Below, piece after piece: positions 1 to 10,546 of a stretch of DNA of 20,000 bases. Each line of letters opens with the position of its first letter. Within the stretch, counting starts at the first letter, position 1. Position numbers and translations under genes: made by a program. Under the pieces are notes generated by a model. It was not told the DNA's origin, did no database searches, and saw only the letters and a list, made by a program, of their open reading frames with translations. The stretch is from an uncultured virus (IMG/VR IMGVR_UViG_3300020047_004730) (taxonomy: Duplodnaviria; Heunggongvirae; Uroviricota; Caudoviricetes; Crassvirales), in IMG/VR virus record IMGVR_UViG_3300020047_004730. One strand, 5' to 3'.

Positions 1-3000
1 TTAGCAGCAGGCTTAACTTCAGTAACAACTTCTTGTTTAGCTACAGTTGGTGTCGCTTTTTCTACTTTCGTAGTAGTAGCAGTTTTAGTTGCAGGCAACA
101 AAGGAGTTATTTTTGCATCGTACTTATTGTATATTTCGTTATACTTAGCTAAAACATCAGCTGGCATAGATTCCTTGTTTATCTCACCATCGACTTTGTA
201 TTCCTCTATATTAGGTATAGCTTCATTTAACTCTTGCTGTTCTTGAGCTCTTAAAGTTTTTACTTTTTCGCTATTGGTAGCCTCCTTGCTTTTAGAAGTC
301 TCCTTAACGTACTTTGTCTCTACTTCTTTGTATACAGTATCAAAGTCAGCTTGCTCTACAGTTCCAATCTCATTTTCTCTTTGCTTTATAGCTAAATCCA
401 TAGCTATGTCACCAGTAAACTTAGCTGTTGTTCCAAATCTATCTGTTACCGTTACAGCCGCAAGATTACCTGCATCATCAAATTCAAAGTCTCCTTCATT
501 TATCTTCATCGTAGGAGTGTCTAGAACAACAGTTTCACCGTTATCCATTACAGCCTCTGTTCTGCCTTTGTTTGATTTAAAGGTAGCAGGAACTCCGTTT
601 ACTTCTGCTGTTTGTCCTTCGAAGAATTTTTCTGCGCTGATTTTAGCTGTAGCAGCTTGTTTAGCAACTGGAGCTGTGCCTCTTTGGGTAACAGCGATAG
701 TTTCAGTCTTTGTTCTAAATTCATAGTTGTCTAGTTGTTCTGCTATATTCATTAATTTTTCAGACAAAGATTTCTTGGTCTGATCAGAATAATTTGCATC
801 GTTATTAATTGATTCTACTTCACTAAATATCGTATCTATAGTTGAATTAATTTCTGAATCGTTAATGTATTCAGCGTTATTCATCTTAGCCATTACGCTA
901 TCTATAGTACCACCTATTCTCTCGTTTGATCCTAGTTCTGAAATATAATTACTTACTTCTTGTGTTGCCTTAGCACCGAGTTCTTTTACACTTATGCTTT
1001 CGACAGCGCTATCGCCAGTATTTGCTTCATTGACCGTGGCTTCCCGTTGGATCCCTTCTCCTTGCCCGACTTTTTGTTGTCCTTCACTAGTTCCCTGATA
1101 TTCGACTGTACTACCTTCTGTTGTACCTTCTTGTTGCTGGATGTTGTCTTTTTTATTGGCATCTTCTGATATTTGTGTTAGTTTATTGTTTATTTCTGAT
1201 ATTCTAGCTTTTTGTACTGAAACAAGACTCTCATCTTTACCTGAAATTTCATTTTCTAATCTTTGTTTTTCAGCCAATAACTTAAATGATTCTGTCTTAT
1301 CAGTTACATTAGCTGGAATCTTATCAAGCAAACCTATAGAAGAATTTAATTCATCTATTTGATCTTTAGCTTGCTCTACTGTAATCTGATTATTTAAAAT
1401 TTTTGTCTTTAAATCATTTTCAAATACAGTTTTTACATTTGGATCATTTATTATTTTCTCTAATGTATTTATTTGATTTGCAGTTCTAACTTCCTTAGCA
1501 GTACTTATAGCCTGAGTAGTAGAAGACATTATCGTTCCTCCAAGAAGTCCTAGCTTATAGCTTTCAGACATTCTATCTACTATCTCTGGAAATGAAGGAT
1601 TTTTAAATACCTCTTGATCTTTCATTTCATTGTATGCATACTTTATCCCAATATCACCTAATTCCTGTAAGGCTTCAGTAGACGCTTCAACATTACCTTT
1701 AGCTGACAAGCTTATTACTCCCTTTGCAATTAATGCATTCACGTTAGTCTTTACAGCCTTATCTACCATTTCTTCAGTAGCATCCTTAGGTAAATCCTTA
1801 AATGCTTTTGCCATTATATATGATGTGAGATTAACACCAGCTGGACTCTTAGAAAACCATTTAGACATACCCAAAGACTCTAGCTTGGAAGATATATATC
1901 CATATCCACCACTTAATAATATCTTATCAGCTTCATCTATACCTGCAGTATCTGGGTCTGAATTTATTTGATCTTTAAAGTTTAAGTATGAGTTAGCAAA
2001 CAATCCTAATTGTTGAGGATTTAGAACAGCTTTTTTACCAAGTTGTTTCATTATCTCAATCCCTCCTTGTCTCCAAAATGATGATGTAGCAACAGATCCA
2101 ACAGCTCCTCCTATAGGCATAGAAGCTGCAGCACCTATTGATTCAGCCATTCCAGCCAATACTTTTTCAACATCAGATAATTTTGCACTTTTTGTATACT
2201 CATCAGACATTATTCCGGGAAGAAGATCTTGCCATGCATCATTTCTTGACACTGACTCATCATATATTCTTTTACCATTTATGTCATATGTAGGGGTCTT
2301 AGTGTAATCATCGATTTGCTTTAACATCTTAGGAAGGCTTACAAATCCACTAGCAAAACTAGAAATTATATTACTAGCCATGTCGCCTCTTAATTCTTTT
2401 GGAGTTGATGCCTCACCGATAATCTTTTCCATGGAATCATTATTTTCCATTATAGTTTTAGATTCATCGACAAGATTATCATATCTTTCCTTTAGCTGTA
2501 GCTTATTAGTTTTGTATGACTCATCATTTGTTATTTCATCATATTTTTCTTTAGTTATCTGACCTGAAACATATAAATTTTTTAACTCTTCATCTGTCTC
2601 TTGTTGTTTTTTCAAGTCATCCTTAAATACAACAGAATTAGATACAAATCTTGTTATATTTTGTTGTGTATCTTCCCTAACGTCAGTGGCATTTTTCTTA
2701 CCATACATTGCCATTGCATTATAATTATTTTGCAATGCATATCCTTTTCTGTAAAATTCTTGTTCTTTTATTTTAGAGTCAGTATCTGAAATTTCTTTTT
2801 CTATTTCATATGACGGTCTGCCAGCTGGATTTTTTAATTCATCAACTAGGTATCTTCTTTTTTCAACTAGATTATTATAGTCTCTAAATTCAAGATTGGA
2901 TTTTATAAATGACTTAAATATTTCTTTTTCATTTTCTGTTCCATCTAAGTCTATTACGATATCTTGAAGAGTTTTTTTGTTCGTTATTTTCAACATGTTA

Positions 3001-3656
3001 CCCATGCCAGCTTCTTCGAAATCAAATAAATCATATCCAATATCTTTAAAGCTTCTAGATAATTCATATACAGATTCTTCTTCTGATTTATTAACGTACT
3101 TAGATGCAGCTTCTGATATCTTATCTATCTTTTTTCTTTCTACTACAATAGGGTCATCATTCTCCATTACATTGAATGACTTTTTAAACAAATCTTGAGC
3201 TTGTTTTTGATCTACTGTAGCGTTCTTTTTTTCTTTCTGAATATCTGGTGTAGACGTAAATTTTAATTCAAGATTTTTCTCATAATCTGAATCAAATAAT
3301 TTTTTAGAATTTTTCTCTAAATTTGAAATTCTTTTATCAACATCTCCTTTATATAGTTTGATAAAATTTCCAGATCTATTTGTATCTACAAACCATTCAT
3401 TGCCCTTCTTTTTGTATACAGAGAACTCATTACCGGGAAATGAATATAATCCTTCAGGCTTTCCTCCAGAAGAAACCGAAGGCTTTTGCTCCTTCTTGGC
3501 TGGAGTAACCGATGAAGTAGGTTTTTGACCTGATGGAGAAAGTGATGCCGTAGGTTCTTTTTTTTTTACAGCATCTTCACTTGAGTATTTTTCCCAAGGT
3601 TTCTTATCTTCTGTTTGTTGAGAATATTTTTCCCAAGGTTTTTTTTCTTCTGACAT
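1..3656 (-). CDS. Giant internal virion (cargo/ejection) protein, >1218 aa, 3' end beyond the window
   Basis: ATG at 3656 (MSEEKKPWEKYSQQTEDKKPWEKYSS...). The frame reads open to the window edge (...QEVVTEVKPAA), which explains its absence from the ORF track. Coiled-coil-like K/E-rich stretches, Gly/Ala hydrophobic segments (LAGMAESIGAAASMPIGGAVGSVA) and EASTEALQE. Lies after two smaller ejection-type genes. Confidence 0.88.
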   Translation of the reverse strand, partial: MSEEKKPWEKYSQQTEDKKPWEKYSSEDAVKKKEPTASLSPSGQKPTSSVTPAKKEQKPSVSSGGKPEGLYSFPGNEFSVYKKKGNEWFVDTNRSGNFIKLYKGDVDKRISNLEKNSKKLFDSDYEKNLELKFTSTPDIQKEKKNATVDQKQAQDLFKKSFNVMENDDPIVVERKKIDKISEAASKYVNKSEEESVYELSRSFKDIGYDLFDFEEAGMGNMLKITNKKTLQDIVIDLDGTENEKEIFKSFIKSNLEFRDYNNLVEKRRYLVDELKNPAGRPSYEIEKEISDTDSKIKEQEFYRKGYALQNNYNAMAMYGKKNATDVREDTQQNITRFVSNSVVFKDDLKKQQETDEELKNLYVSGQITKEKYDEITNDESYKTNKLQLKERYDNLVDESKTIMENNDSMEKIIGEASTPKELRGDMASNIISSFASGFVSLPKMLKQIDDYTKTPTYDINGKRIYDESVSRNDAWQDLLPGIMSDEYTKSAKLSDVEKVLAGMAESIGAAASMPIGGAVGSVATSSFWRQGGIEIMKQLGKKAVLNPQQLGLFANSYLNFKDQINSDPDTAGIDEADKILLSGGYGYISSKLESLGMSKWFSKSPAGVNLTSYIMAKAFKDLPKDATEEMVDKAVKTNVNALIAKGVISLSAKGNVEASTEALQELGDIGIKYAYNEMKDQEVFKNPSFPEIVDRMSESYKLGLLGGTIMSSTTQAISTAKEVRTANQINTLEKIINDPNVKTVFENDLKTKILNNQITVEQAKDQIDELNSSIGLLDKIPANVTDKTESFKLLAEKQRLENEISGKDESLVSVQKARISEINNKLTQISEDANKKDNIQQQEGTTEGSTVEYQGTSEGQQKVGQGEGIQREATVNEANTGDSAVESISVKELGAKATQEVSNYISELGSNERIGGTIDSVMAKMNNAEYINDSEINSTIDTIFSEVESINNDANYSDQTKKSLSEKLMNIAEQLDNYEFRTKTETIAVTQRGTAPVAKQAATAKISAEKFFEGQTAEVNGVPATFKSNKGRTEAVMDNGETVVLDTPTMKINEGDFEFDDAGNLAAVTVTDRFGTTAKFTGDIAMDLAIKQRENEIGTVEQADFDTVYKEVETKYVKETSKSKEATNSEKVKTLRAQEQQELNEAIPNIEEYKVDGEINKESMPADVLAKYNEIYNKYDAKITPLLPATKTATTTKVEKATPTVAKQEVVTEVKPAA
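992..1162 (-). CDS. Nested (+1 frame) 56-aa basic protein MPIKKTTSSNKKVQQKVVQSNIRELVKDNKKSGKEKGSNGKPRSMKQILAIALSKA
   Basis: Hand translation: ATG at 1162-1160, TAA at 994-992. Resembles the small phage proteins of pattern MPLKKG...SENIRE...KQAVAIALSKA (DUF6496-like, from memory). A-rich upstream sequence. Local GC about 45% versus about 30% at 1201-1320. Confidence 0.7.
   Translation of the reverse strand: MPIKKTTSSNKKVQQKVVQSNIRELVKDNKKSGKEKGSNGKPRSMKQILAIALSKA
3454..3567 (-). other. A10 slippery run (3558-3567) and -1 frame extension KKKRTYGITFSIRSKTYFIGYSSQEGAKAFGFFWRKA*
   Basis: Zero frame reads GTA AAA AAA AAA GAA. The -1 frame is bounded by TGA at 3579-3577 and TGA at 3456-3454 and has no start codon. 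The zero frame over this stretch is S/P/T/K low-complexity. Confidence 0.6.
3586..3641 (-). repeat. 17-bp direct repeat, 39 nt apart, encoding tandem KKPWEKYS motifs
   Basis: tatttttcccaaggttt at 3586-3602 and 3625-3641. Confidence 0.9.
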
Positions 3657-3659
3657 AGA

Positions 3660-5222
3660 TTAATTTTTTTTCCAATTTTTCTTATCTGCAGGATCTCCAC
3701 CTAGAAATGTATATCCTTCTACCGAATCACCCTTTTTAGGTGTTTTACCGCCTGTACTTGTTTCTCCTGTATTCGTATTCGTGCTGCCTCCCGGTTTGTA
3801 GTAGTAATCACCGTAAAGTTTCTTGTAATCATCTTTTCCTTTATGATACAATGGAACATTACCTTTCACGTTTTTCAAGTACTGAGTCATTCCATCAGGA
3901 CTGTATATTCTTACTTTTTGATTAGCAGGCTTAATTTTACCATTACCAACGTCTATTTTTTCATCAATTACAACATAAGGATTTCCATCTTTGTCTTTAT
4001 ACCAGTTGAATGTATAGTTGTCAGTATCGAATCCTGCAAAATTTCCTTTAGAAAGAGCGTCAGCTGATGCCGTATATGCGTTAATAGCTACTTTCTGGTC
4101 GTCAGTACCTCCACCTCCACCACTGCTTGAATACGGCTGAGGTGCACTAGCTTGAATCTTAGTTTCAATCTGGTAGTCAATCTCTTTAGCAACTCTCTCT
4201 TTAGCTGCAGTCAGTTGATCGTTCGTAAGTACTGGAATCATTTCTCCAGCTGCATTCTTTTCAAACTTAATAAATGACATTTCAATTTTCTTCTTGTCAT
4301 CATCAGTAAATTTCTTTCCTGCTGCTTCGTATTCAGCCTTTGCTTTAGATAGCTCCTTAGATAGCATTGCATCTTTTTCGCTATCTTTTGAGTAGTAGTT
4401 TGCTGAATTAATAACGCCATTATCAACTAGTATACTAAGTGCTGACTTTGGGTTTGACGTTACTGCATTAGCAACATTTATCTGCATGAACTTATAATCA
4501 TCTTGATTTTTAATGCTTGAAACTGTTTTTTCACCACCTCTACCAAGCATAGTCCATTCATCTACACTCTTCCAGTTTCCAATAGCTCCATCAACAACTG
4601 AGCCAATGTCTACTCGATTTATCTGAAGGTTTTCTGGACGAGCAAAGTCACGGTAATCAATAAGTTCACCTACTGGATTTCCTGATGCGTCTGTCTCTTG
4701 TAAGTACATAGATCCATCATTACCCAATACCATCTTCTTGTTATTCAAGTCAGCCATCTTAAGGTATTCATTCATGTAGAATGACTCTCCGTCAGATGCT
4801 GCAACTACTCCATTAGCATCTGGAGTAAGTCTGTCTTGATAAAGCTTGAATCTTTCATCAGCTGTCTTTGCTTGGTCAGCAAAATTACTCCAGTATTCCT
4901 GTGCGTTTGCAAGAGTCTTCTTATAATCTGCAGTTGATATTTCTCTATTGTATAGCTTCTTCTTTAAATCAAGAGCCATCTTCTTGTACTTATCAGCTCC
5001 ATCAATAACGAAGTTCGTTAGCGTCTGCTTTTCAAGATTTAATGGTTTGTTTAATTTAGTAAGCGTATCTGAATATTGAGTTTCAATTTCTTCAATTGCC
5101 TTATCCCTATTCTTACCTATCTGAGATACTTCAGCTCCTAACTTAGAGGTTAGTGCAGCCCAATCTACATTGGATCCACGATCTCTATATTCTATATTTT
5201 GTAGTGTACTTTGTCCTGCCAT
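3660..5222 (-). CDS. Putative internal virion/ejection protein (520 aa)
   Basis: Helical N-terminus, Gly/Ser linker (SSSGGGGGT) and C-terminal mini-domain KGDSVEGYTFLGGDPADKKNWKK. Lies between the pilot-like gene and the giant gene. Confidence 0.75.
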   Translation of the reverse strand: MAGQSTLQNIEYRDRGSNVDWAALTSKLGAEVSQIGKNRDKAIEEIETQYSDTLTKLNKPLNLEKQTLTNFVIDGADKYKKMALDLKKKLYNREISTADYKKTLANAQEYWSNFADQAKTADERFKLYQDRLTPDANGVVAASDGESFYMNEYLKMADLNNKKMVLGNDGSMYLQETDASGNPVGELIDYRDFARPENLQINRVDIGSVVDGAIGNWKSVDEWTMLGRGGEKTVSSIKNQDDYKFMQINVANAVTSNPKSALSILVDNGVINSANYYSKDSEKDAMLSKELSKAKAEYEAAGKKFTDDDKKKIEMSFIKFEKNAAGEMIPVLTNDQLTAAKERVAKEIDYQIETKIQASAPQPYSSSGGGGGTDDQKVAINAYTASADALSKGNFAGFDTDNYTFNWYKDKDGNPYVVIDEKIDVGNGKIKPANQKVRIYSPDGMTQYLKNVKGNVPLYHKGKDDYKKLYGDYYYKPGGSTNTNTGETSTGGKTPKKGDSVEGYTFLGGDPADKKNWKKN

Positions 5223-5236
5223 AATATATCTATAAC

Positions 5237-5983
5237 TTAGTTATATCCACCTAATCCAGCAGGTGCTCCTGCATTCCATAAATAATCTCCAGCTAGATTG
5301 CTTGCACCCACTACAGGCGCTCCATAGTTAGATGTTACACTTCCAGAGTAATTAGCTACTGGATTACTGTATGCTTTCTTAAATGATTTGCGTGAAATAT
5401 TAGATTCATCCTTATCTTTCTTATACTTATATCTTCCTGTTGCTGGGTCAAAGTCTCCAGCTGCTGCTCCAATACCTGCTGCTGCAGCTCCTACCATTCC
5501 AGAAATTGCGTCATTCCTATTTGCTGAAGCTGTATTGAATTGAGTATTGGCTTGACCTATCTCATATCCTGCAGCTTCTTCTTGACGTCTTACTGCATCC
5601 TGACCAATTCTTGATTGCTCATTAGCCTTCAATAAGTCAGTCTGTGCATTAATTTCTCCTTGCTGTTGTGCAGCCTGAAGATTTGCCTCTTGTCCTGCCT
5701 GAACTAAGTTGGTTACACCCCCAATAGCTCCCTCAGCTCCGGTCTGAGATAGTGCATCAACTCCTTGAGACATAGCTCTTTGAGTTCTATCAAATTGTAA
5801 TGATGAAATATCTGGTGCTTGCAATGAAGCTAGAGCATTCTGCTCTGTAATATTTTTGTATCCTTGAAGTGCTGCATTTGATTTTGCTTGAGCTTCTTTC
5901 ATACGTCTGCCCTCTTGGACAGCCTGAATAGCACTCATGCCTAAACCTGCTAAAGATACACCTGCTGAAATAAGTCCGAACAT
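5237..5983 (-). CDS. Putative ejection/pilot-type internal virion protein (248 aa)
   Basis: Hydrophobic Gly/Ala N-terminus (MFGLISAGVSLAGLGMSAIQA), Q/A-rich coiled coil and a second Gly/Ala segment (GMVGAAAAGIGAAAG), typical of podovirus DNA-injection proteins. Confidence 0.75.
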   Translation of the reverse strand: MFGLISAGVSLAGLGMSAIQAVQEGRRMKEAQAKSNAALQGYKNITEQNALASLQAPDISSLQFDRTQRAMSQGVDALSQTGAEGAIGGVTNLVQAGQEANLQAAQQQGEINAQTDLLKANEQSRIGQDAVRRQEEAAGYEIGQANTQFNTASANRNDAISGMVGAAAAGIGAAAGDFDPATGRYKYKKDKDESNISRKSFKKAYSNPVANYSGSVTSNYGAPVVGASNLAGDYLWNAGAPAGLGGYN

Positions 5984-6771: not shown

Positions 6772-7682
6772 AAACAAGTATCAACCGACTGAACTAAGTC
6801 AAAGTATTTCTTCGAGCAGTGTTCATCCGAAAGCTCTAGCTCAATTCCATACGGTAGCTTGTCAATATAATCAGCCTTAAAGAACATTCCCCTATTTGGA
6901 CCAGACACCCCAGCATTATGGAAGAACGCATGTTCGTCCCATCTGTCAGTATGGCATGTAGCCCAGCTAAAGTTAAATTCTTTCGGACATACTGTCTTGT
7001 ATCCATTCTTCCATGCAGTCCAAAGTTCAGCCCACATTGATGCCGTCCATATCTGTATTCCGTACTGATGCCCCTCTGGCTTGATGTGAGCGACTTTCTT
7101 TAGAAGTTGGTATAGATTTACTGAATGAGCGTTTACCTCCCTCCAGTAGTCCTTATTTACGTTCTTCATTAACTTCTGTGCGCCACCTGAATTCTTCTCG
7201 TTAGACTCAACTAACGAACGATTGATTCCTATGGTCTGGCACATCATGTCAAGTACTGCCGAACCTTTGCTTTTAATATACTCCGATCCGATGTAACTTA
7301 CCGTATCACTGAAGTACCAAATGTCGTCCTGCAGGAATGGAGTGAAGTCGAAATATTTTGTGAATAAGAAGTCTGCATCATGGAAAAACAAGGCGCACTC
7401 AGATAAGTATGGGTGCAGTTCGAAGTGTTTATATAAAATTGCACTCTGCATGGCTGGTGCGTATTCACAATCATAATACTCGTATACGTGAATTTCCACG
7501 TCAGGGAATGCTTGTTTTAACACCGTCCATGACTTATCAACTCCAGAGCTTGACGTGTACCCTCCAAGTACAATAATATCTTCTGGATTATATCCCAGTC
7601 GAATGAACTGGGTTAAATATACCTCAACCTGCCAAGCATAATACTGAGTGGCAGGTTGAGCGCTAATTAGTTTTAACTGCAT
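6765..7682 (-). CDS. GT-A fold glycosyltransferase, HPAT/SERGT1 (GT95/GT96)-like (305 aa)
   Basis: Ordered motifs YYAWQ, EYAPAMQSAILYKHF, FFHDADFLF (DxD), GGAQKLM, WTASMWAELWTAW and FFHNAG parallel the YxxWQ, YxxxNKP, DxD, WxxEMY and late His motifs of plant protein O-glycosyltransferases. Overlaps the upstream gene by 10 nt. Confidence 0.75.
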   Translation of the reverse strand: MQLKLISAQPATQYYAWQVEVYLTQFIRLGYNPEDIIVLGGYTSSSGVDKSWTVLKQAFPDVEIHVYEYYDCEYAPAMQSAILYKHFELHPYLSECALFFHDADFLFTKYFDFTPFLQDDIWYFSDTVSYIGSEYIKSKGSAVLDMMCQTIGINRSLVESNEKNSGGAQKLMKNVNKDYWREVNAHSVNLYQLLKKVAHIKPEGHQYGIQIWTASMWAELWTAWKNGYKTVCPKEFNFSWATCHTDRWDEHAFFHNAGVSGPNRGMFFKADYIDKLPYGIELELSDEHCSKKYFDLVQSVDTCLI

Positions 7683-10546
7683 GTGTAAGATACTTCAGTC
7701 CATACATCTCCGTCCCATTGTTCGGATACAGTTTGAGTTAATTTTTGATACCATCCAGCATCCGCTTTTGCGCTACCGTCTGCTTTTTTAAATATGTTAT
7801 TCCCAGCTACTCCCATTGGTCCATCTATCCAGTATTCAGATATTGTACCATTACAAGACAATACTCCAGTAGTTCCGTATCTAAGAAGCATCCTAGTTAG
7901 TGGCGCTGCAGTAGTTGTGGTGGTTGTAGTAGTAGTTGTACTTGTTGTGGTTGTACTTGTAGTGGTGGTAGTTGTCGTAGTTGTTATTCCTTGACAGTCA
8001 ACACAGTTATCAAAAGTAAACAAAATTGTTGATATTGCAGGTCCAGATCCAGCGTATGAGTTTATTGTATAACAGGTTCCATTTACTGCCTTTACTACAG
8101 TTCCTAACGGTAGCTGTAATAATGCCTGTTCGCTAATAATAACTGATGGAGAAGCAGTTCCGCATGCCGTACAGTTATAGAACCAAGTTGGTAACGTAGT
8201 AGTAGTTGTAGTAGTTGTCGCTGAACAATTAACCACAGCTAATACCTGACCAAGCAGTCCAATTTGTATTACTATCCCAGTAGATACCTTGTACCACTTT
8301 GACAGTCCATTAAACGTAATAGTTCCACCAGCATCTGTAAACACAAAGTCTGAAACAGTAGGAACAGCTCCAGCTCCGTTATGATATCTAGTAGTCCAAG
8401 GAGCAGCTCCGTTATCGCAAGCTAGAGATGATGACACAAATGCATCGGCATCAATACTGAATGCTGTTATTGGAGTTGCTGTAGTTGTTGTGGTAGTTGT
8501 AGTTGTTGTAGTAACACTCAAACAAGTGTCGCAGTCAGCATACGTAACTACTGGATGCTCAATCGATAGGTATGGGAATGTAGCTGTAGTTACAGATGTA
8601 ATCGTCCAACAGTTACCGTCATCCGTCTTTACAATATCTGACACAATTACTCCTGATGTAGTCGCATCAAAAAGAACAGCCGATACAGTTGGATCAACAC
8701 AAGATGTACCCACAAAGTAATCACCTGTAGGTAATGTAGTTGTAGTTGTAGTAGTGGTTGTAGTTGTAGTTGTAGTTGTTGATGTAGGACACTCGTTCTT
8801 ACTGCAAACCTTACCTAACTCGTTTAGTTTTATAGAGTATGTCGCAGGGTCAATGCTGTACCAAACCCCTCCACCCATAAATGGCTCTAGTCCCTTATCG
8901 TCCTTGAATACGTGATCTCCTTCTGTCGGAACGTATCCAGCTCCATCGTGATACATTATTGAGTAAAGTGGAGAACTCAAAACGCATGCAGCATCCCCAG
9001 TATCAGCGAAGTTCTCTACGTCAATAAGGAATGGCTTCAGTTGGATATCAGTACCTACCGTTACAGTAAGTGACTTAACCACTGAGTCACCAAAACAGTT
9101 AGATGCCTGAACGTCAAACATAAATGTACAGCTGTCTGTAGGAGTTCCTGAAATACTTCCCGTATCGCTTAATGTTATCCCTGCAGGAAGTATGTCAGCC
9201 TGAGAAGGTCCAACAAGTGTCTGCGCTCCCGGTCCTCCTATAACTGCAGGTGTTGATGAGGAAGAAATTAAAGACGTAGTGTTTGCACTTACGGTTACCT
9301 TCTTCGCTTGATTGTCACATGATGTGTAACTAAATATTGTTCCAGTATCTCCACCCGTTAGCTCGTATGTATTACATGTTGCATTTACTATACTCCACGA
9401 TGTAGGATTTCCAGTTGCTAATAATTGAATGTTAACATTTCTTCCAACCAGAAGTGATAAGTCTTCTTGATGTATAAACGGTGGAGCAAACTCATTGCAG
9501 TCACACCCCCCATTAGCAAATACAGCTCCGTCGGATGCCACCCCAATATACGTACCTCCAGAAACAGGCGGTACAAGTAATGACGTTACTGATGTCTGGT
9601 AGTAAGCACCACCACCATCGAATAATACGTACTCTCCATTCTCTAATCTATAAATCCTATCTCCCGTTGTTGGAAGTAATCCAGCTCCGTCATGATAGTA
9701 TAACTCGTCAGCTACTTGAGAACAAACATTAGCTAGTGTTCCAACAGCTGAGTCTATATAAAAAGAAGTTAACGTAGGATCTATTCTCTCTAAGAAGAAT
9801 GATGTGTTGGTAGATATAGTTGTAGCATATACATTAGATACCCCAGTAGATAGGTGCTTACTGAATCTTAATTGTCCAGTTCCGTTATTTACTAATCCAT
9901 TATATGGAGCCACTAGTCCTATGTCTTCTGGACTTATACCGTCAGCAATTAGTGCTAGATAGTTAGCATTAGAATTCAATCCTACATACTTAGTGTCTGC
10001 TACTATTACGCCATTCCATTCTATCTGAACTCTAGTTGGCTTGTCAGGGATCACATAATCAATTCCAGCTCTACCTAAATCAGTTCCAAAGTCGCAATCA
10101 ATAATTCTTTCTGATCCTGCACCTAGGTAAGATACAACTCCGCTATCTAAATTATCTGAGTAGTCCCATATAACATACAAGAACGGGAGATCATCAGGAT
10201 TTAAAAATACAAATGTACCCTCATATCTTCCTCCATCCGTAGCACTATACACCACTGGTATCTCTGTAGCGTTTGATACTATCTCAGATCTATCTGAAGG
10301 ACCATACTGAATATCAGACACTAGGTAGTACACCTTGTTGTTTAATCCCGGTTGTAGCTTCTGATTTATTTTATTTGATCCATTTCCAGCAATTATATAT
10401 ACCGTATCACCATTTGCAGGCATATAATCTATACCACCTATGCCGTTTCTAGAGTCAAACAAAGATACGCCAGAGTCAGACAGATTGATTCTATCTATTT
10501 GATAGTAAGTGACTCCATCAGGAGAGTATGATTGATTTGATTGCAT
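7673..10546 (-). CDS. Modular virion surface/tail appendage protein with Ig-like domain, Cys-containing repeats and poly-Thr linkers (957 aa)
   Basis: Three YH[DN]GAGxxPTxxD modules plus a degenerate fourth, two CxxC-ending modules, a He_PIG-like domain (LPAGITLSDTGSISGTPT...VQASN), and four Thr tracts. Confidence 0.8.
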   Translation of the reverse strand: MQSNQSYSPDGVTYYQIDRINLSDSGVSLFDSRNGIGGIDYMPANGDTVYIIAGNGSNKINQKLQPGLNNKVYYLVSDIQYGPSDRSEIVSNATEIPVVYSATDGGRYEGTFVFLNPDDLPFLYVIWDYSDNLDSGVVSYLGAGSERIIDCDFGTDLGRAGIDYVIPDKPTRVQIEWNGVIVADTKYVGLNSNANYLALIADGISPEDIGLVAPYNGLVNNGTGQLRFSKHLSTGVSNVYATTISTNTSFFLERIDPTLTSFYIDSAVGTLANVCSQVADELYYHDGAGLLPTTGDRIYRLENGEYVLFDGGGAYYQTSVTSLLVPPVSGGTYIGVASDGAVFANGGCDCNEFAPPFIHQEDLSLLVGRNVNIQLLATGNPTSWSIVNATCNTYELTGGDTGTIFSYTSCDNQAKKVTVSANTTSLISSSSTPAVIGGPGAQTLVGPSQADILPAGITLSDTGSISGTPTDSCTFMFDVQASNCFGDSVVKSLTVTVGTDIQLKPFLIDVENFADTGDAACVLSSPLYSIMYHDGAGYVPTEGDHVFKDDKGLEPFMGGGVWYSIDPATYSIKLNELGKVCSKNECPTSTTTTTTTTTTTTTTTLPTGDYFVGTSCVDPTVSAVLFDATTSGVIVSDIVKTDDGNCWTITSVTTATFPYLSIEHPVVTYADCDTCLSVTTTTTTTTTTTATPITAFSIDADAFVSSSLACDNGAAPWTTRYHNGAGAVPTVSDFVFTDAGGTITFNGLSKWYKVSTGIVIQIGLLGQVLAVVNCSATTTTTTTTLPTWFYNCTACGTASPSVIISEQALLQLPLGTVVKAVNGTCYTINSYAGSGPAISTILFTFDNCVDCQGITTTTTTTTTSTTTTSTTTTTTTTTTAAPLTRMLLRYGTTGVLSCNGTISEYWIDGPMGVAGNNIFKKADGSAKADAGWYQKLTQTVSEQWDGDVWTEVSYTCS
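7910..7984 (-). repeat. Poly-Thr tract T9-S-T4-S-T10
   Basis: 25 consecutive Thr/Ser codons with mixed ACN codons. Confidence 0.95.
8195..8218 (-). repeat. Poly-Thr tract T8
   Basis: 8 ACN codons. Confidence 0.95.
8480..8512 (-). repeat. Poly-Thr tract T11
   Basis: 11 ACN codons. Confidence 0.95.
8735..8779 (-). repeat. Poly-Thr tract T15
   Basis: 15 ACN codons. Confidence 0.95.

What the first reader, a model, noticed from the sequence alone, without database searches (positions are those of the whole stretch)
3454..3656. A10 slippery site opens a hidden -1 frame encoding an amphipathic aromatic beta-strand peptide
Seen: after codon 30 of the giant gene the sequence is GTA AAA AAA AAA GAA. 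A -1 shift, or one extra A from transcriptional slippage, gives a 67-aa product MSEEKKPWEKYSQQTEDKKPWEKYSSEDAVKKK-RTYGITFSIRSKTYFIGYSSQEGAKAFGFFWRKA*. The -1 frame has a TGA just upstream and no start codon, so it is reachable only by slippage. The zero frame here is featureless (PTASLSPSGQKPTSSVTP), while the -1 frame has three strand-like segments with alternating aromatic/aliphatic residues. GC is about 48% versus about 22% at 3241-3360, consistent with dual coding. Inference: a short isoform keeps the PWEKY repeats and gains a beta-meander resembling outer-membrane strands. It could form an oligomeric pore or anchor for ejection, or mimic a beta-signal, made at a fixed ratio to the giant protein.
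Basis: partly seen in the sequence, partly recalled or inferred. Interest (0 to 1): 0.85.

Follow-up and report, generated by a model that had tools for sequence, protein, structure and literature searches.

The report
Conserved poly-A recoding site, giant phage gene
A run of ten A's near the start of a phage's giant virion-protein gene is conserved in dozens of related phages, together with a hidden reading frame behind it, so slippage there very likely makes a second, small protein that ordinary annotation misses.

Summary
The A10 run lies at window 3558-3567 (minus strand), codons 30-33 of a 3479-aa gene. The -1 frame is closed just upstream, has no start codon, and is open for 34 codons to TGA at 3454-3456.

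Comparison shows this is not chance. All 32 related metagenomic contigs carry an A9-A12 run at this junction (27 are A10), always with the giant ORF in frame 0 and a 30-40 codon ORF in frame -1. The three Lys codons are AAA in 18 of 18 loci, against 0 of 13 other KKK tripeptides in the same genes.

In the overlap, nucleotide variation peaks at the third position of the -1 frame. The run plus overlap forms a ~110-nt conserved island between unrelated flanks. The -1 peptide folds as a three-stranded beta meander (pLDDT 84.6), while the frame-0 stretch is predicted disordered. Nine database proteins have exactly the predicted fused architecture.

A cultured relative, Flavobacterium phage elemoF, keeps the A10 run in another codon phase (E-K-K-N) with a homologous -1 ORF.

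The best reading is programmed slippage (RNA polymerase or ribosome) producing a 67-aa trans-frame protein. There is no RNA or protein evidence yet, and its function is unknown.

The parts
3..3656 (-). 5' part (1218 codons) of the giant gene. The whole gene is 3479 aa on the 54,979-bp virus contig (contig 37107-47546).
   Evidence: ORF listing and translation. Homologues of 2425-3144 aa. Only DUF7178, phrog_3842 and phrog_3170 match. The middle region matches genes annotated 'large polyvalent protein' or lysin in other phages. The syntenic giant genes of cultured relatives are annotated 'structural protein'.
3567..3656 (-). N-terminal module, codons 1-30, with two copies of KKPWEKYS (3621-3644 and 3582-3605). 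It is shared by both products.
   Evidence: Translation. Homologues carry unrelated tandem-motif modules at this position. The module is exchanged exactly at the run.
3558..3567 (-). A10 slippery run: the last base of GTA plus AAA AAA AAA.
   Evidence: Conserved as A9-A12 in 32 of 32 related contigs. All-AAA in 18 of 18 loci at this site against 0 of 13 other KKK sites (Fisher p = 5e-9). Kept in another codon phase in phage elemoF.
3457..3558 (-). Hidden -1 frame ORF of 34 codons (RTYG...WRKA). It encodes a cationic, aromatic three-stranded beta meander.
   Evidence: Conserved alignment. Variation is highest at the third position of the -1 frame. AF2 mean pLDDT 84.6 with strands at residues 3-11, 14-23 and 26-35. 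The profile finds 9 database proteins with the fused architecture.
3454..3456 (-). TGA stop of the -1 ORF, formed by CCT GAA (the P-E of GKPEGLY) in frame 0.
   Evidence: Tail length is 30-40 codons in 28 loci, and 25 of the 28 fall within 31-35.
3577..3579 (-). TGA that closes the -1 frame upstream of the run.
   Evidence: All 18 loci have a stop 2-13 codons upstream and no start codon in between.
3456..3557 (-). Frame-0 codons 34-67, a Ser/Thr/Pro-rich linker of the giant protein that overlaps the hidden ORF.
   Evidence: AF2 of the first 150 residues gives pLDDT 45-52 and no secondary structure for residues 1-65. The fold starts at residue 69, just after the -1 stop.
3660..5222 (-). Upstream 520-aa gene (context only). 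Its stop lies 3 nt before the giant gene's ATG.
   Evidence: No Pfam or PHROG match.

Best explanation
The A10 run is a programmed slippage site. It sits at the junction between a swappable N-terminal tandem-motif module and the body of a giant virion protein gene of 'polyvalent' type, in a podophage of Flavobacteriia-type hosts.

Standard decoding gives the 3479-aa giant protein. In a fraction of expression events the reading frame moves to -1. This happens either because RNA polymerase adds one A while transcribing the run (A11 mRNA) or because the ribosome slips back one base on A_AAA_AAA. Translation then runs through a 34-codon overlapping ORF and stops.

The result is a 67-aa trans-frame protein. 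It consists of the same N-terminal module, the Lys run, and a cationic aromatic three-stranded beta meander.

What is shown: the run is conserved at nucleotide level, the -1 ORF is conserved and under purifying selection, it has no start of its own, and it has a predicted fold.

What is inferred:
- That slippage actually occurs.
- Which machine slips. I favour transcription, about 2:1, because run length of 9 or more is what is kept and no stimulatory element is conserved.
- That the small protein works alongside the giant one through the shared N-terminal module, for example in docking or packaging into the virion, at a ratio set by slippage.
For: 1. **Unbiased set.** Twelve contigs were found through the frame-0 domain downstream. 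In 12 of 12 the site is AAA AAA AAA with a run of 10 or more, and the -1 ORF is 32-39 codons. The +1 frame is open for only 9-57 codons and is not conserved.
2. **More contigs.** Twenty further contigs were found with the tail profile. In 20 of 20 the giant ORF is in frame 0 and the tail in frame -1. Run lengths over all 32 contigs are A9 x2, A10 x27, A11 x2 and A12 x1.
3. **The tenth A** is supplied either by the preceding codon (GTA, ACA, TTA, CCA, GGA, GCA) or by the following one (AGC, AGT, AAT).
4. **Codon choice.** AAA makes up 65% of Lys codons elsewhere in these ORFs. Of 13 other KKK tripeptides, 0 are all-AAA, against 18 of 18 at the site (p = 5e-9).
5. **Codon phase.** Cultured Flavobacterium phage elemoF keeps an A10 run in another codon phase (CCT GAA AAA AAA AAT, so there is no KKK). 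The tail HMM hits its -1 ORF alone among 346 ORFs (E = 2.7e-6; next best 0.45). So the nucleotide run is what is conserved, not the Lys motif.
6. **Period-3 signal.** Pairwise differences by -1-frame codon position are 0.371, 0.352 and 0.464 over 28 loci. In the 25 codons downstream of the overlap, the usual frame-0 pattern returns.
7. **Openness is not forced by the frame-0 protein.** Synonymous recoding keeps the -1 frame open in only 0.4-19% of trials per locus.
8. **Conserved island.** In four pairs of loci, identity is 60-100% (mostly 73-100%) across the run and overlap. It is 13-50% on both sides. Public contigs diverge exactly at the run.
9. **No independent start** in 18 of 18 loci.
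10. **Fold.** The tail is predicted as a three-stranded beta meander with pLDDT 84.6. The frame-0 overlap is predicted disordered.
11. **Database proteins.** A profile search of 1.84 billion proteins gave 10 hits. Nine are 63-110 aa proteins built as M + tandem module + KKK + tail ending at the C-terminus.
12. **No stimulator.** There is no conserved RNA structure after the run and no conserved sequence before it. This fits slippage driven by the run alone.
13. **Literature.** A published abstract (PMC6260861) reports that bacterial RNAP needs runs of at least 7 T and more A's to slip.
Against: - There is no RNA-level or protein-level evidence. The laid runs are assembled contigs, which cannot show A11 transcripts.
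- Selection signals are clear in direction but moderate in size. Codon identity at conserved frame-0 residues is 0.66 in the overlap against 0.56 downstream. Changes silent only in frame -1 number 1300 of 1013 possible, against 1325 of 1327 for frame 0. Both frames are therefore constrained.
- Loci are phylogenetically related, so the counts are not independent.
- The 20 contigs found with the tail profile are biased towards having a tail.
- The fold rests on 11 sequences of 36 aa.
- In more distant cultured phages the run is kept, but the -1 peptide is not detectably homologous. phi38:1 has no significant hit (best ORF E = 0.078) and Panino has no hit. The MW202828 peptide lacks the aromatic pattern.
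- Some deposited genomes have A9 with the giant out of frame. This could be sequencing error rather than biology.
Confidence: 0.85

Rival explanations
1. Heritable run-length variation in the DNA (phase-variation-like replication slippage), rather than slippage during expression, is the main route to the small protein. Genomes with one more A would encode it in frame and lack the giant protein.
For: Nine singleton database proteins have the N-terminal module in frame with the tail, each seen on one contig of 738-29,431 bp. One of them has the N-terminus of locus L004 but reads on into the tail frame. Deposited genomes of Panino, phi19:3 and phi13:2 carry A9 with the giant ORF out of frame. A laid DNA contig also appears to carry A9.
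Against: In 0 of 32 viral or metagenome contigs is the tail in frame with the N-terminal module. A genome without the giant virion protein would probably be defective on its own. The variant records may be homopolymer errors, and I could not read their DNA or reads. This rival does not exclude slippage during expression, since long A-runs slip at both levels.
Confidence: 0.1
2. The run and the ~100 nt behind it are conserved as a nucleic-acid element, for example a homology 'linker' for exchanging N-terminal modules or a regulatory DNA/RNA signal. The open -1 frame is then a by-product.
For: The island of identity is flanked on both sides by unrelated sequence, and module exchange happens exactly at the run.
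Against: - A nucleic-acid element would not give a period-3 pattern with most change at the third position of the -1 frame.
- The ORF stays open at 45-67% peptide identity.
- No RNA structure or covariation was found.
- The peptide folds confidently.
- Phage elemoF keeps the run and the peptide pattern with very different nucleotides.
Confidence: 0.05
3. Only frame 0 matters. KKK plus the Ser/Thr/Pro linker would be a conserved protein signal such as a cleavage or packaging site. The all-AAA coding would serve to stall or attenuate translation of the giant protein, and the -1 ORF would be incidental.
For: KKK is invariant in 22 of 22 full-length proteins. The linker has some conserved residues. 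Poly-A Lys runs are known, from general knowledge and recalled here, to perturb elongation.
Against: - Phage elemoF keeps A10 but reads E-K-K-N in frame 0.
- Frame-0 second positions are the most variable in the overlap.
- The linker is predicted disordered, yet it is the best-conserved stretch of the 5' region.
- The -1 frame's openness is not forced by the frame-0 protein.
Confidence: 0.05

Closest known systems
Potyvirus P3N-PIPO (polymerase slippage at GAAAAAA giving access to the pipo ORF)
   Same: A short ORF with no start of its own lies inside a very long ORF. It is reached when the polymerase adds one A at an A-run. The product is a trans-frame fusion that keeps the N-terminal part of the main protein. 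The ORF was recognised by conservation in an alternative frame. (Passages read in PMC5009743; abstracts of PMC4552492 and PMC5027478 in the listing.)
   Different: PIPO belongs to a plant RNA virus with its own replicase and an A6 run. The present case is a dsDNA phage with A9-A12, a DNA-dependent RNA polymerase (or the ribosome), a shift only about 30-70 codons into the gene, and an unrelated 30-40 aa beta tail.
E. coli copA giving a 70-aa CopA(Z), and dnaX tau/gamma (-1 ribosomal frameshift; Thermus dnaX by transcriptional slippage on an A-run)
   Same: A recoding site early or midway in a long gene yields a much shorter protein that keeps the N-terminal domain, at a set ratio. (copA: passage in PMC5009743. 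dnaX: recalled, not read here.)
   Different: In those cases the shifted frame stops almost at once and adds no conserved domain. E. coli dnaX and copA also use stimulatory elements. Here the shifted frame encodes a conserved folded peptide, and no stimulator was found.
Shigella spa13 / mxiE and Citrobacter rodentium tssM transcriptional slippage
   Same: Bacterial RNA polymerase slips on a homopolymer run inside a gene of an injection machine and gives two products. (spa13: passage in PMC5009743. tssM: abstract start in the listing.)
   Different: In those cases slippage restores or extends the long product. They are chromosomal or plasmid genes, not phage genes.
Phage lambda G/GT tail-assembly chaperone frameshift
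   Same: A conserved programmed frameshift in a phage structural module gives two proteins with a common N-terminal part at a fixed ratio. (Figure legend passage in PMC5009743.)
   Different: G/GT is a -1 ribosomal shift at the 3' end of a small gene and gives a longer product, between the tail-tube and tape-measure genes of long-tailed phages. Here the site is at the 5' end of a giant gene in a podophage-type module with crAss-muzzle-like proteins, and the shifted product is the short one.

Membership tests
Programmed transcriptional slippage site (homopolymer type) | A homopolymer run long enough for a multisubunit RNA polymerase to slip, conserved at nucleotide level | tested here: met
   A9-A12 in 32 of 32 contigs. 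All-AAA in 18 of 18 loci against 0 of 13 control KKK sites. The run is kept in another codon phase in elemoF.
Programmed transcriptional slippage site (homopolymer type) | A conserved, selected ORF in the frame reached by a one-base insertion, with no start of its own | tested here: met
Programmed transcriptional slippage site (homopolymer type) | Run-length heterogeneity in mRNA above that in DNA | not testable with these tools
   Only assembled contigs could be laid.
Programmed transcriptional slippage site (homopolymer type) | The trans-frame protein is detected | not testable with these tools
   No proteome data were on hand. Database ORFs with the fused architecture are gene predictions, not protein detections.
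-1 programmed ribosomal frameshift (X_XXY_YYZ plus stimulator) | A slippery heptamer in frame 0 | tested here: met
   A_AAA_AAA lies within the run in every locus.
-1 programmed ribosomal frameshift (X_XXY_YYZ plus stimulator) | A stimulatory structure 5-9 nt downstream, or a Shine-Dalgarno-like element upstream | tested here: not met
   The consensus fold is -3.6 kcal/mol with 0 covarying pairs. The window fold has z = -1.31, and the first 20 nt after the run are unpaired. The upstream sequence is unrelated between loci.
Phage tail-assembly chaperone (G/GT-type) frameshift | The site lies at the end of a small chaperone gene before the tape-measure gene, and the shifted product is longer | tested here: not met
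   The site is at codon 30-33 of a 3479-aa gene. The shifted product is 67 aa. No tape-measure context is present.
Large polyvalent / giant virion protein of phages (the host gene) | More than 2000 aa, many domains, similarity to genes annotated as polyvalent proteins, virion-associated | tested here: inconclusive
   The protein is 3479 aa. It has an HExxH motif at residue 1317 and DUF7178. tblastn finds matches of 30-44% coverage to genes annotated 'large polyvalent protein', lysin or methyltransferase. Syntenic genes are annotated 'structural protein' in cultured relatives. No DxDGD motif is present and there is no PDB relative. Virion association was not tested.

The most novel reading that the evidence does not exclude
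The run plus hidden ORF is an ancient, portable recoding cassette shared by several families of Flavobacteriia phages (elemoviruses, Pervagoviridae, Pachyviridae and their freshwater relatives). Any N-terminal 'address' module placed before it is issued in two forms at once: fused to the giant injected or virion protein, and fused to a small cationic beta-meander peptide. In some phages (A9 genomes such as phi19:3, phi13:2 and Panino) the giant protein itself can be made only by slippage. The A-run would then be both an obligatory decoding device and the recombination joint at which modules are exchanged.
Probability: 0.3. Interest if true: 0.85.

Novelty: new member of a known kind. Interest (0 to 1): 0.72.

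Why it matters
Recoding sites conserved across phages are few, the tail-chaperone frameshift being the classic case. This would be a second widely conserved one, in a different gene class and probably at the level of transcription. It adds an unannotated small protein to at least 32 uncultured phage genomes and to cultured model phages, clearly in the Flavobacterium elemo phages and probably in Cellulophaga phi38:1 and Tenacibaculum Gundel_1.

It also suggests that some deposited genomes may be mis-annotated at this spot. In phi19:3 and phi13:2 the giant gene is split into a small 'structural protein' and a gene starting at a non-ATG codon (TTG in phi19:3). In Panino the giant gene's start is placed downstream of an unannotated module.

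Because cultured hosts and phages exist, the prediction can be tested directly. It also gives a handle on how giant virion proteins are addressed or loaded, since both products share the exchangeable N-terminal tandem motif.

I found no report of this site. Four searches were run: crAss-like / frameshift / slippage; transcriptional slippage / phage / homopolymeric; polyvalent protein / frameshift / phage; and Flavobacterium or Cellulophaga phage / programmed frameshift / transcriptional slippage / trans-frame. In one search, the five listed papers that mention phi38 contain the word 'frameshift' zero times. The library lacks most subscription journals, including the original descriptions of these phages.

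Tried and rejected
**Binding and fold**
- Complex prediction with four copies of the tail (alignment A2) gave no verdict (score 0.02). It counts neither for nor against self-association.
- Foldseek of the tail model against the PDB found no match at E <= 0.001.
- ESM Atlas with the short form P0026 gave a best score of 0.77, below any useful level.

**Family libraries**
- Pfam on the nine short forms gave only sub-threshold noise.
- PHROGs gave nothing for the tails. The N-terminal modules of P0027 and P0029 match the first 60 positions of the 1686-position family phrog_32588.

**Searches with the window's own sequence against the GenBank phage collection**
- blastn of 2800-3900, tblastn of the first 400 aa, tblastn of the tail, and tblastn of P0029 all found no match.
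- The cassette in cultured phages was found only by going to the syntenic gene.
- The first viral-contig scan with a single protein found no relative. Scans with alignments were needed. One alignment (A4) was too diverse to scan with and was replaced by A5.

**RNA evidence**
- The four runs laid are assembled contigs, so they cannot show transcript heterogeneity. Two come from RNA libraries but do not prove transcription.
- No stimulatory RNA structure was found.

**Identity of the giant gene**
- The idea that it is the crAss-type virion RNA polymerase was dropped. There is no DxDGD motif, no PDB relative and no RNA polymerase family match.

**Other**
Full report
**Context.** The window is the reverse strand of positions 20763-40762 of a 54,979-bp virus contig, about 90% complete by the collection's estimate. 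All large ORFs in the window lie on the minus strand and form a structural module. They include a major-capsid-like protein (phrog_13704), two proteins matching crAss muzzle families (PF25731, PF25729) and several 'virion structural protein' PHROGs. The nearest cultured relatives by capsid protein are Flavobacterium elemo phages (51%), Maribacter phage Panino (55%) and Cellulophaga and Tenacibaculum phages, plus an uncultured record, MW202828 (60%). The gene in question starts at window 3656 and runs off the window. On the contig it is 3479 aa. Only DUF7178 and two function-less PHROGs match it. It has an HExxH motif, no DxDGD motif and no relative in the PDB. Its middle part resembles genes annotated 'large polyvalent protein', lysin or methyltransferase in other phages.

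**The observation.** It is exact. Codon 30 is GTA and codons 31-33 are AAA AAA AAA, then GAA, which gives A10 at 3558-3567. The -1 frame has TGA at 3579-3577, no start codon after it, and then 34 codons from the last A of the run to TGA at 3456-3454. GC is 48.1% in the overlap and 21.7% at 3241-3360. Alone this is weak evidence. In this genome, 2.5% of codon boundaries have a -1 frame open for 34 or more codons, and A-runs of 7 or more occur 14 times on this strand of the contig.

**Homologues at protein level.** A search with residues 1-420 found 21 other giant proteins of 2425-3144 aa. Their N-termini differ completely. Each has its own pair of tandem short motifs. All 22 converge on an invariant KKK, then a Ser/Thr/Pro-rich stretch, then a conserved domain (GKPEGLY...WYVD...KGDV).

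**Homologues at DNA level, unbiased set.** I scanned the viral and metagenome contig collections with patterns taken from the conserved frame-0 domain, well downstream of the run. This gave 11 distinct contigs besides the window's own.
- In 12 of 12 the three Lys codons are AAA.
- In 12 of 12 the run is 10 or more (ten A10, one A11, one A12).
- The -1 frame is closed 2-13 codons upstream and open for 32-39 codons after the run.
- The +1 frame is open for 9-57 codons with no conserved sequence.
- The tenth A comes from the codon before the run or the codon after it, depending on the locus.

**More loci.** Scans with profiles of the -1 peptide added 20 contigs. This set is biased towards having the peptide, but not with respect to run length or frame relation. 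In 20 of 20 the long ORF passes the run in frame 0 and the peptide is in frame -1. Over all 32 contigs the run lengths are A9 x2, A10 x27, A11 x2 and A12 x1. In 0 of 32 is the peptide in frame with the N-terminal module.

**Is the run selected as nucleotides?** AAA is 46% of Lys codons in this genome's genes and 65% in the giant ORFs. Of 13 other KKK tripeptides in these ORFs, none is all-AAA, against 18 of 18 at the site (Fisher p = 5e-9). In the whole genome only this one of 12 KKK windows is A9. The clearest case is the cultured Flavobacterium phage elemoF. Its syntenic 3694-aa 'structural protein' gene has A10 at nt 170-179 in another codon phase (CCT GAA AAA AAA AAT, reading P-E-K-K-N). 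The -1 frame begins with TGA and then runs for 43 codons after the Lys codons. An HMM of the 28 tails hits that ORF alone among 346 stop-to-stop ORFs of the 22.8-kb locus (E = 2.7e-6; next best 0.45). So the A-run and the -1 peptide are kept while the frame-0 Lys motif is not.

**Is the -1 frame selected as protein?**
- Among 28 distinct loci, pairwise nucleotide difference is 0.371, 0.352 and 0.464 at positions 1, 2 and 3 of the -1 frame. Four loci with identical sequence in this region were dropped: L008, L020, L036 and L040. The most variable position is thus the second position of frame 0.
- In the 25 codons after the overlap, the normal frame-0 pattern returns: 0.31, 0.28 and 0.375 (8 ungapped loci).
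- In the same 8 loci, peptide identity in the overlap is 0.63 in frame -1 and 0.56 in frame 0. Downstream it is 0.47 and 0.57.
- Differences silent only in frame -1 number 1300 (1013 possible). Those silent only in frame 0 number 1325 (1327 possible) (17 loci). Both frames are constrained, frame -1 somewhat more.
- Codon identity at conserved frame-0 residues is modestly higher in the overlap: 0.66 against 0.56 in distant pairs.
- Synonymous recoding of frame 0 keeps the -1 frame open in only 0.4-19% of trials per locus.
- Tail length is 30-40 codons, and 25 of 28 fall within 31-35.

**A conserved island.** Four pairs of loci were compared: L011/L021, L010/L024, L007/L026 and L006/L016. In each, the run and the first ~90 nt of the overlap are 73-100% identical. 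Identity falls to 60-77% in the last 20 nt of the overlap. The sequences on both sides are 13-50% identical in ungapped comparison, which is essentially unrelated. L008 is 93-100% identical to the window from the run onward but has a wholly different N-terminal module. Public assemblies show the same thing:
- One DNA contig follows the window to inside the run and then diverges.
- A contig from an RNA library matches 3491-3568 without a difference. It is unlike the window before 3491, and 208 other letters replace 3569-3743.

**The peptide.** AlphaFold2 on 11 aligned tails gives three strands (residues 3-11, 14-23, 26-35) with mean pLDDT 84.6. The first 150 residues of frame 0 give pLDDT 45-52 and no secondary structure up to residue 65. 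The fold starts at residue 69, directly after the -1 stop. The hidden ORF therefore sits in a disordered linker of the giant protein. The tail has net charge +8 to +10 and 6-9 aromatic residues in 33-37. The conserved pattern is G-[IVF]-x-[FI], then [YC]-[FYI]-[IF]-G, then K-A-[FIY]-G-[IFVL]-F.

**Independent sightings of the fused product.** A profile of the tails run against 1.84 billion proteins found 10 hits at E <= 0.001. Nine are proteins of 63-110 aa built as Met + tandem module + KKK + tail, ending at the C-terminus. The tenth is a repeat protein and a false hit. Each is a singleton on one contig. One has the N-terminus of locus L004 but continues in the tail frame. So assemblies exist whose run length puts the tail in frame. 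These could be real variants, homopolymer errors or RNA assemblies, and I could not see their DNA. They extend the tail family to more distant forms that keep the strand pattern.

**Other cultured phages**.

| Phage | Gene | Run | Giant ORF | -1 ORF after the run |
|---|---|---|---|---|
| Cellulophaga phage phi38:1 | gp101 | A10 (..L KKK E..), after two LDEFGIP motifs | in frame | 24 codons, aromatic/Gly/basic |
| Tenacibaculum phage Gundel_1 | gp74 | A10 | in frame | 30 codons, aromatic/Gly/basic |
| MW202828 (uncultured) | giant | A11 | in frame | 25 codons, basic, without the aromatic pattern |

- The tail HMM has no significant hit in the phi38:1 locus (best ORF E = 0.078). The Gundel_1 and MW202828 peptides were not scored with it. 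Homology is therefore not shown for these three.
- A -1 frame open for 24 or more codons has a 6% chance per site in the window's genome.
- In Panino, phi19:3 and phi13:2 the deposited run is A9 and the N-terminal module is out of frame with the giant ORF.
- phi18:3 and phi46:3 probably have the same layout (matches of equal length; not read).
- In these records the giant ORF's frame is nevertheless open from the run onward (KKKDVSES...).
- The phi19:3 and phi13:2 records annotate a small 'structural protein' followed by a giant gene that starts at a non-ATG codon (TTG in phi19:3).
- This is either a homopolymer undercall or a genome in which the giant protein depends on slippage.
- phi13:2 and phi19:3 carry different N-terminal modules joined at the run.

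**Mechanism.** Nothing conserved lies upstream of the run. Downstream there is no conserved structure. The consensus fold is -3.6 kcal/mol with no covarying pair. The window fold has z = -1.31 and the first 20 nt are unpaired. What is conserved is a run of 9 or more. The abstract of PMC6260861 states that bacterial RNA polymerase needs at least 7 T, and more A's, to slip. Known bacterial and viral cases of polymerase slippage at A-runs are reviewed in PMC5009743 (passages read). I therefore favour transcriptional insertion of one A as the main route, with a run-driven -1 ribosomal slip as the alternative or an additional route. The sequence cannot separate them.

**Function.** This part is inference. 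Both products share the exchangeable N-terminal tandem motif, so they probably bind the same partner. The giant protein's relatives are annotated as virion proteins. A reasonable guess is a docking or loading role in the virion, with the small protein as co-factor or competitor at a ratio set by slippage. Its cationic aromatic sheet could bind nucleic acid, membrane or another sheet. The oligomer job gave no verdict, and fold, atlas and family searches were blank.

**Verdict.** It is a conserved recoding cassette: an A-run plus a hidden -1 ORF at the head of a giant virion protein gene. It is present in at least 32 uncultured phage contigs and in cultured Flavobacterium elemo phages, with run-only conservation reaching Cellulophaga and Tenacibaculum phages. 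It is a new member of a known kind of recoding, closest in logic to potyvirus P3N-PIPO and to copA/dnaX-type short isoforms. I found no report of it, within a library that lacks most subscription journals. Direct RNA and protein evidence is missing but easy to obtain in cultured systems.

Noticed in passing
window 3567-3656 (-); loci L003-L042, first 30-70 codons of the giant genes: The N-terminal modules are pairs of tandem motifs that differ completely between otherwise close homologues. Examples are KKPWEKYS x2, F[IV]PPSDAV x2, NDPLGIL x2, DEFGIPI x2, LPSPxxxL x2, KYPEYKD x2, and longer ~30-aa helical-looking repeats. They are exchanged exactly at the A-run. Two types match the first 60 positions of phrog_32588, a 1686-position family.
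   Followed up: partly
L010 and L013, C-terminus of the gene upstream of the giant gene: The upstream protein ends in ...NDPLNLG(L/INKNK). This resembles the NDPLGIL motif that other phages carry in tandem at the N-terminus of the giant protein (L006). In the window, the upstream protein ends ...KKNWKKN, next to the giant's KKPWEKY repeats. The same short docking motif may be shared by neighbouring virion proteins.
   Followed up: no
public records NC_021789.1 (L049:7056-7560), NC_021803.1 (L052:554-970), PP540027.1 (L046:25718-25902, minus strand): In these deposited genomes of cultured phages the run is A9 and the giant gene is annotated in two parts. phi19:3 and phi13:2 have a small 'structural protein' plus a giant gene starting at a non-ATG codon (TTG in phi19:3). 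In Panino the start is placed downstream, leaving a 184-nt gap that holds an unannotated KYPEYKD-type module. Either these are homopolymer errors or the giant protein needs slippage.
   Followed up: partly
Flavobacterium elemo phage records: Of 60 listed records, 7 begin at nt 170/171 of the giant gene, which is the first base of the A10 run. Another 26 begin at nt 80/81. Assembly breaks at the run may reflect read heterogeneity or a coverage drop at the homopolymer.
   Followed up: no
window 3639-3646 (-) and 3664-3671 (-): Two further A8 runs lie within about 110 nt of the A10 run. One is in codons 4-6 of the giant gene (GAA AAA AAA) and one is at the end of the upstream gene (..KKNWKKN). 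They are not conserved, because these segments differ between homologues.
   Followed up: no
window 7673-10546 (-): This 957-aa protein has several poly-threonine linkers (runs of 8-16 Thr) separating repeated Cys-containing segments. Only phrog_21885 matches it, twice.
   Followed up: no
outside the window: contig 3702-5288 (L028): The phage encodes a GroEL-like chaperonin (PF00118, E = 1e-46), as does Cellulophaga phage phi38:1 (gp005 and a Cpn10).
   Followed up: no
loci L016, L019, L021, L024, L026, after the hidden ORF: The frame-0 domain that follows the overlap is also exchangeable. Some loci have the GLYSFPGN..WYVD..KGDV domain. Others have FTG[FY]PGKE-type repeats or unrelated sequence, starting right after the -1 stop.
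   Followed up: partly
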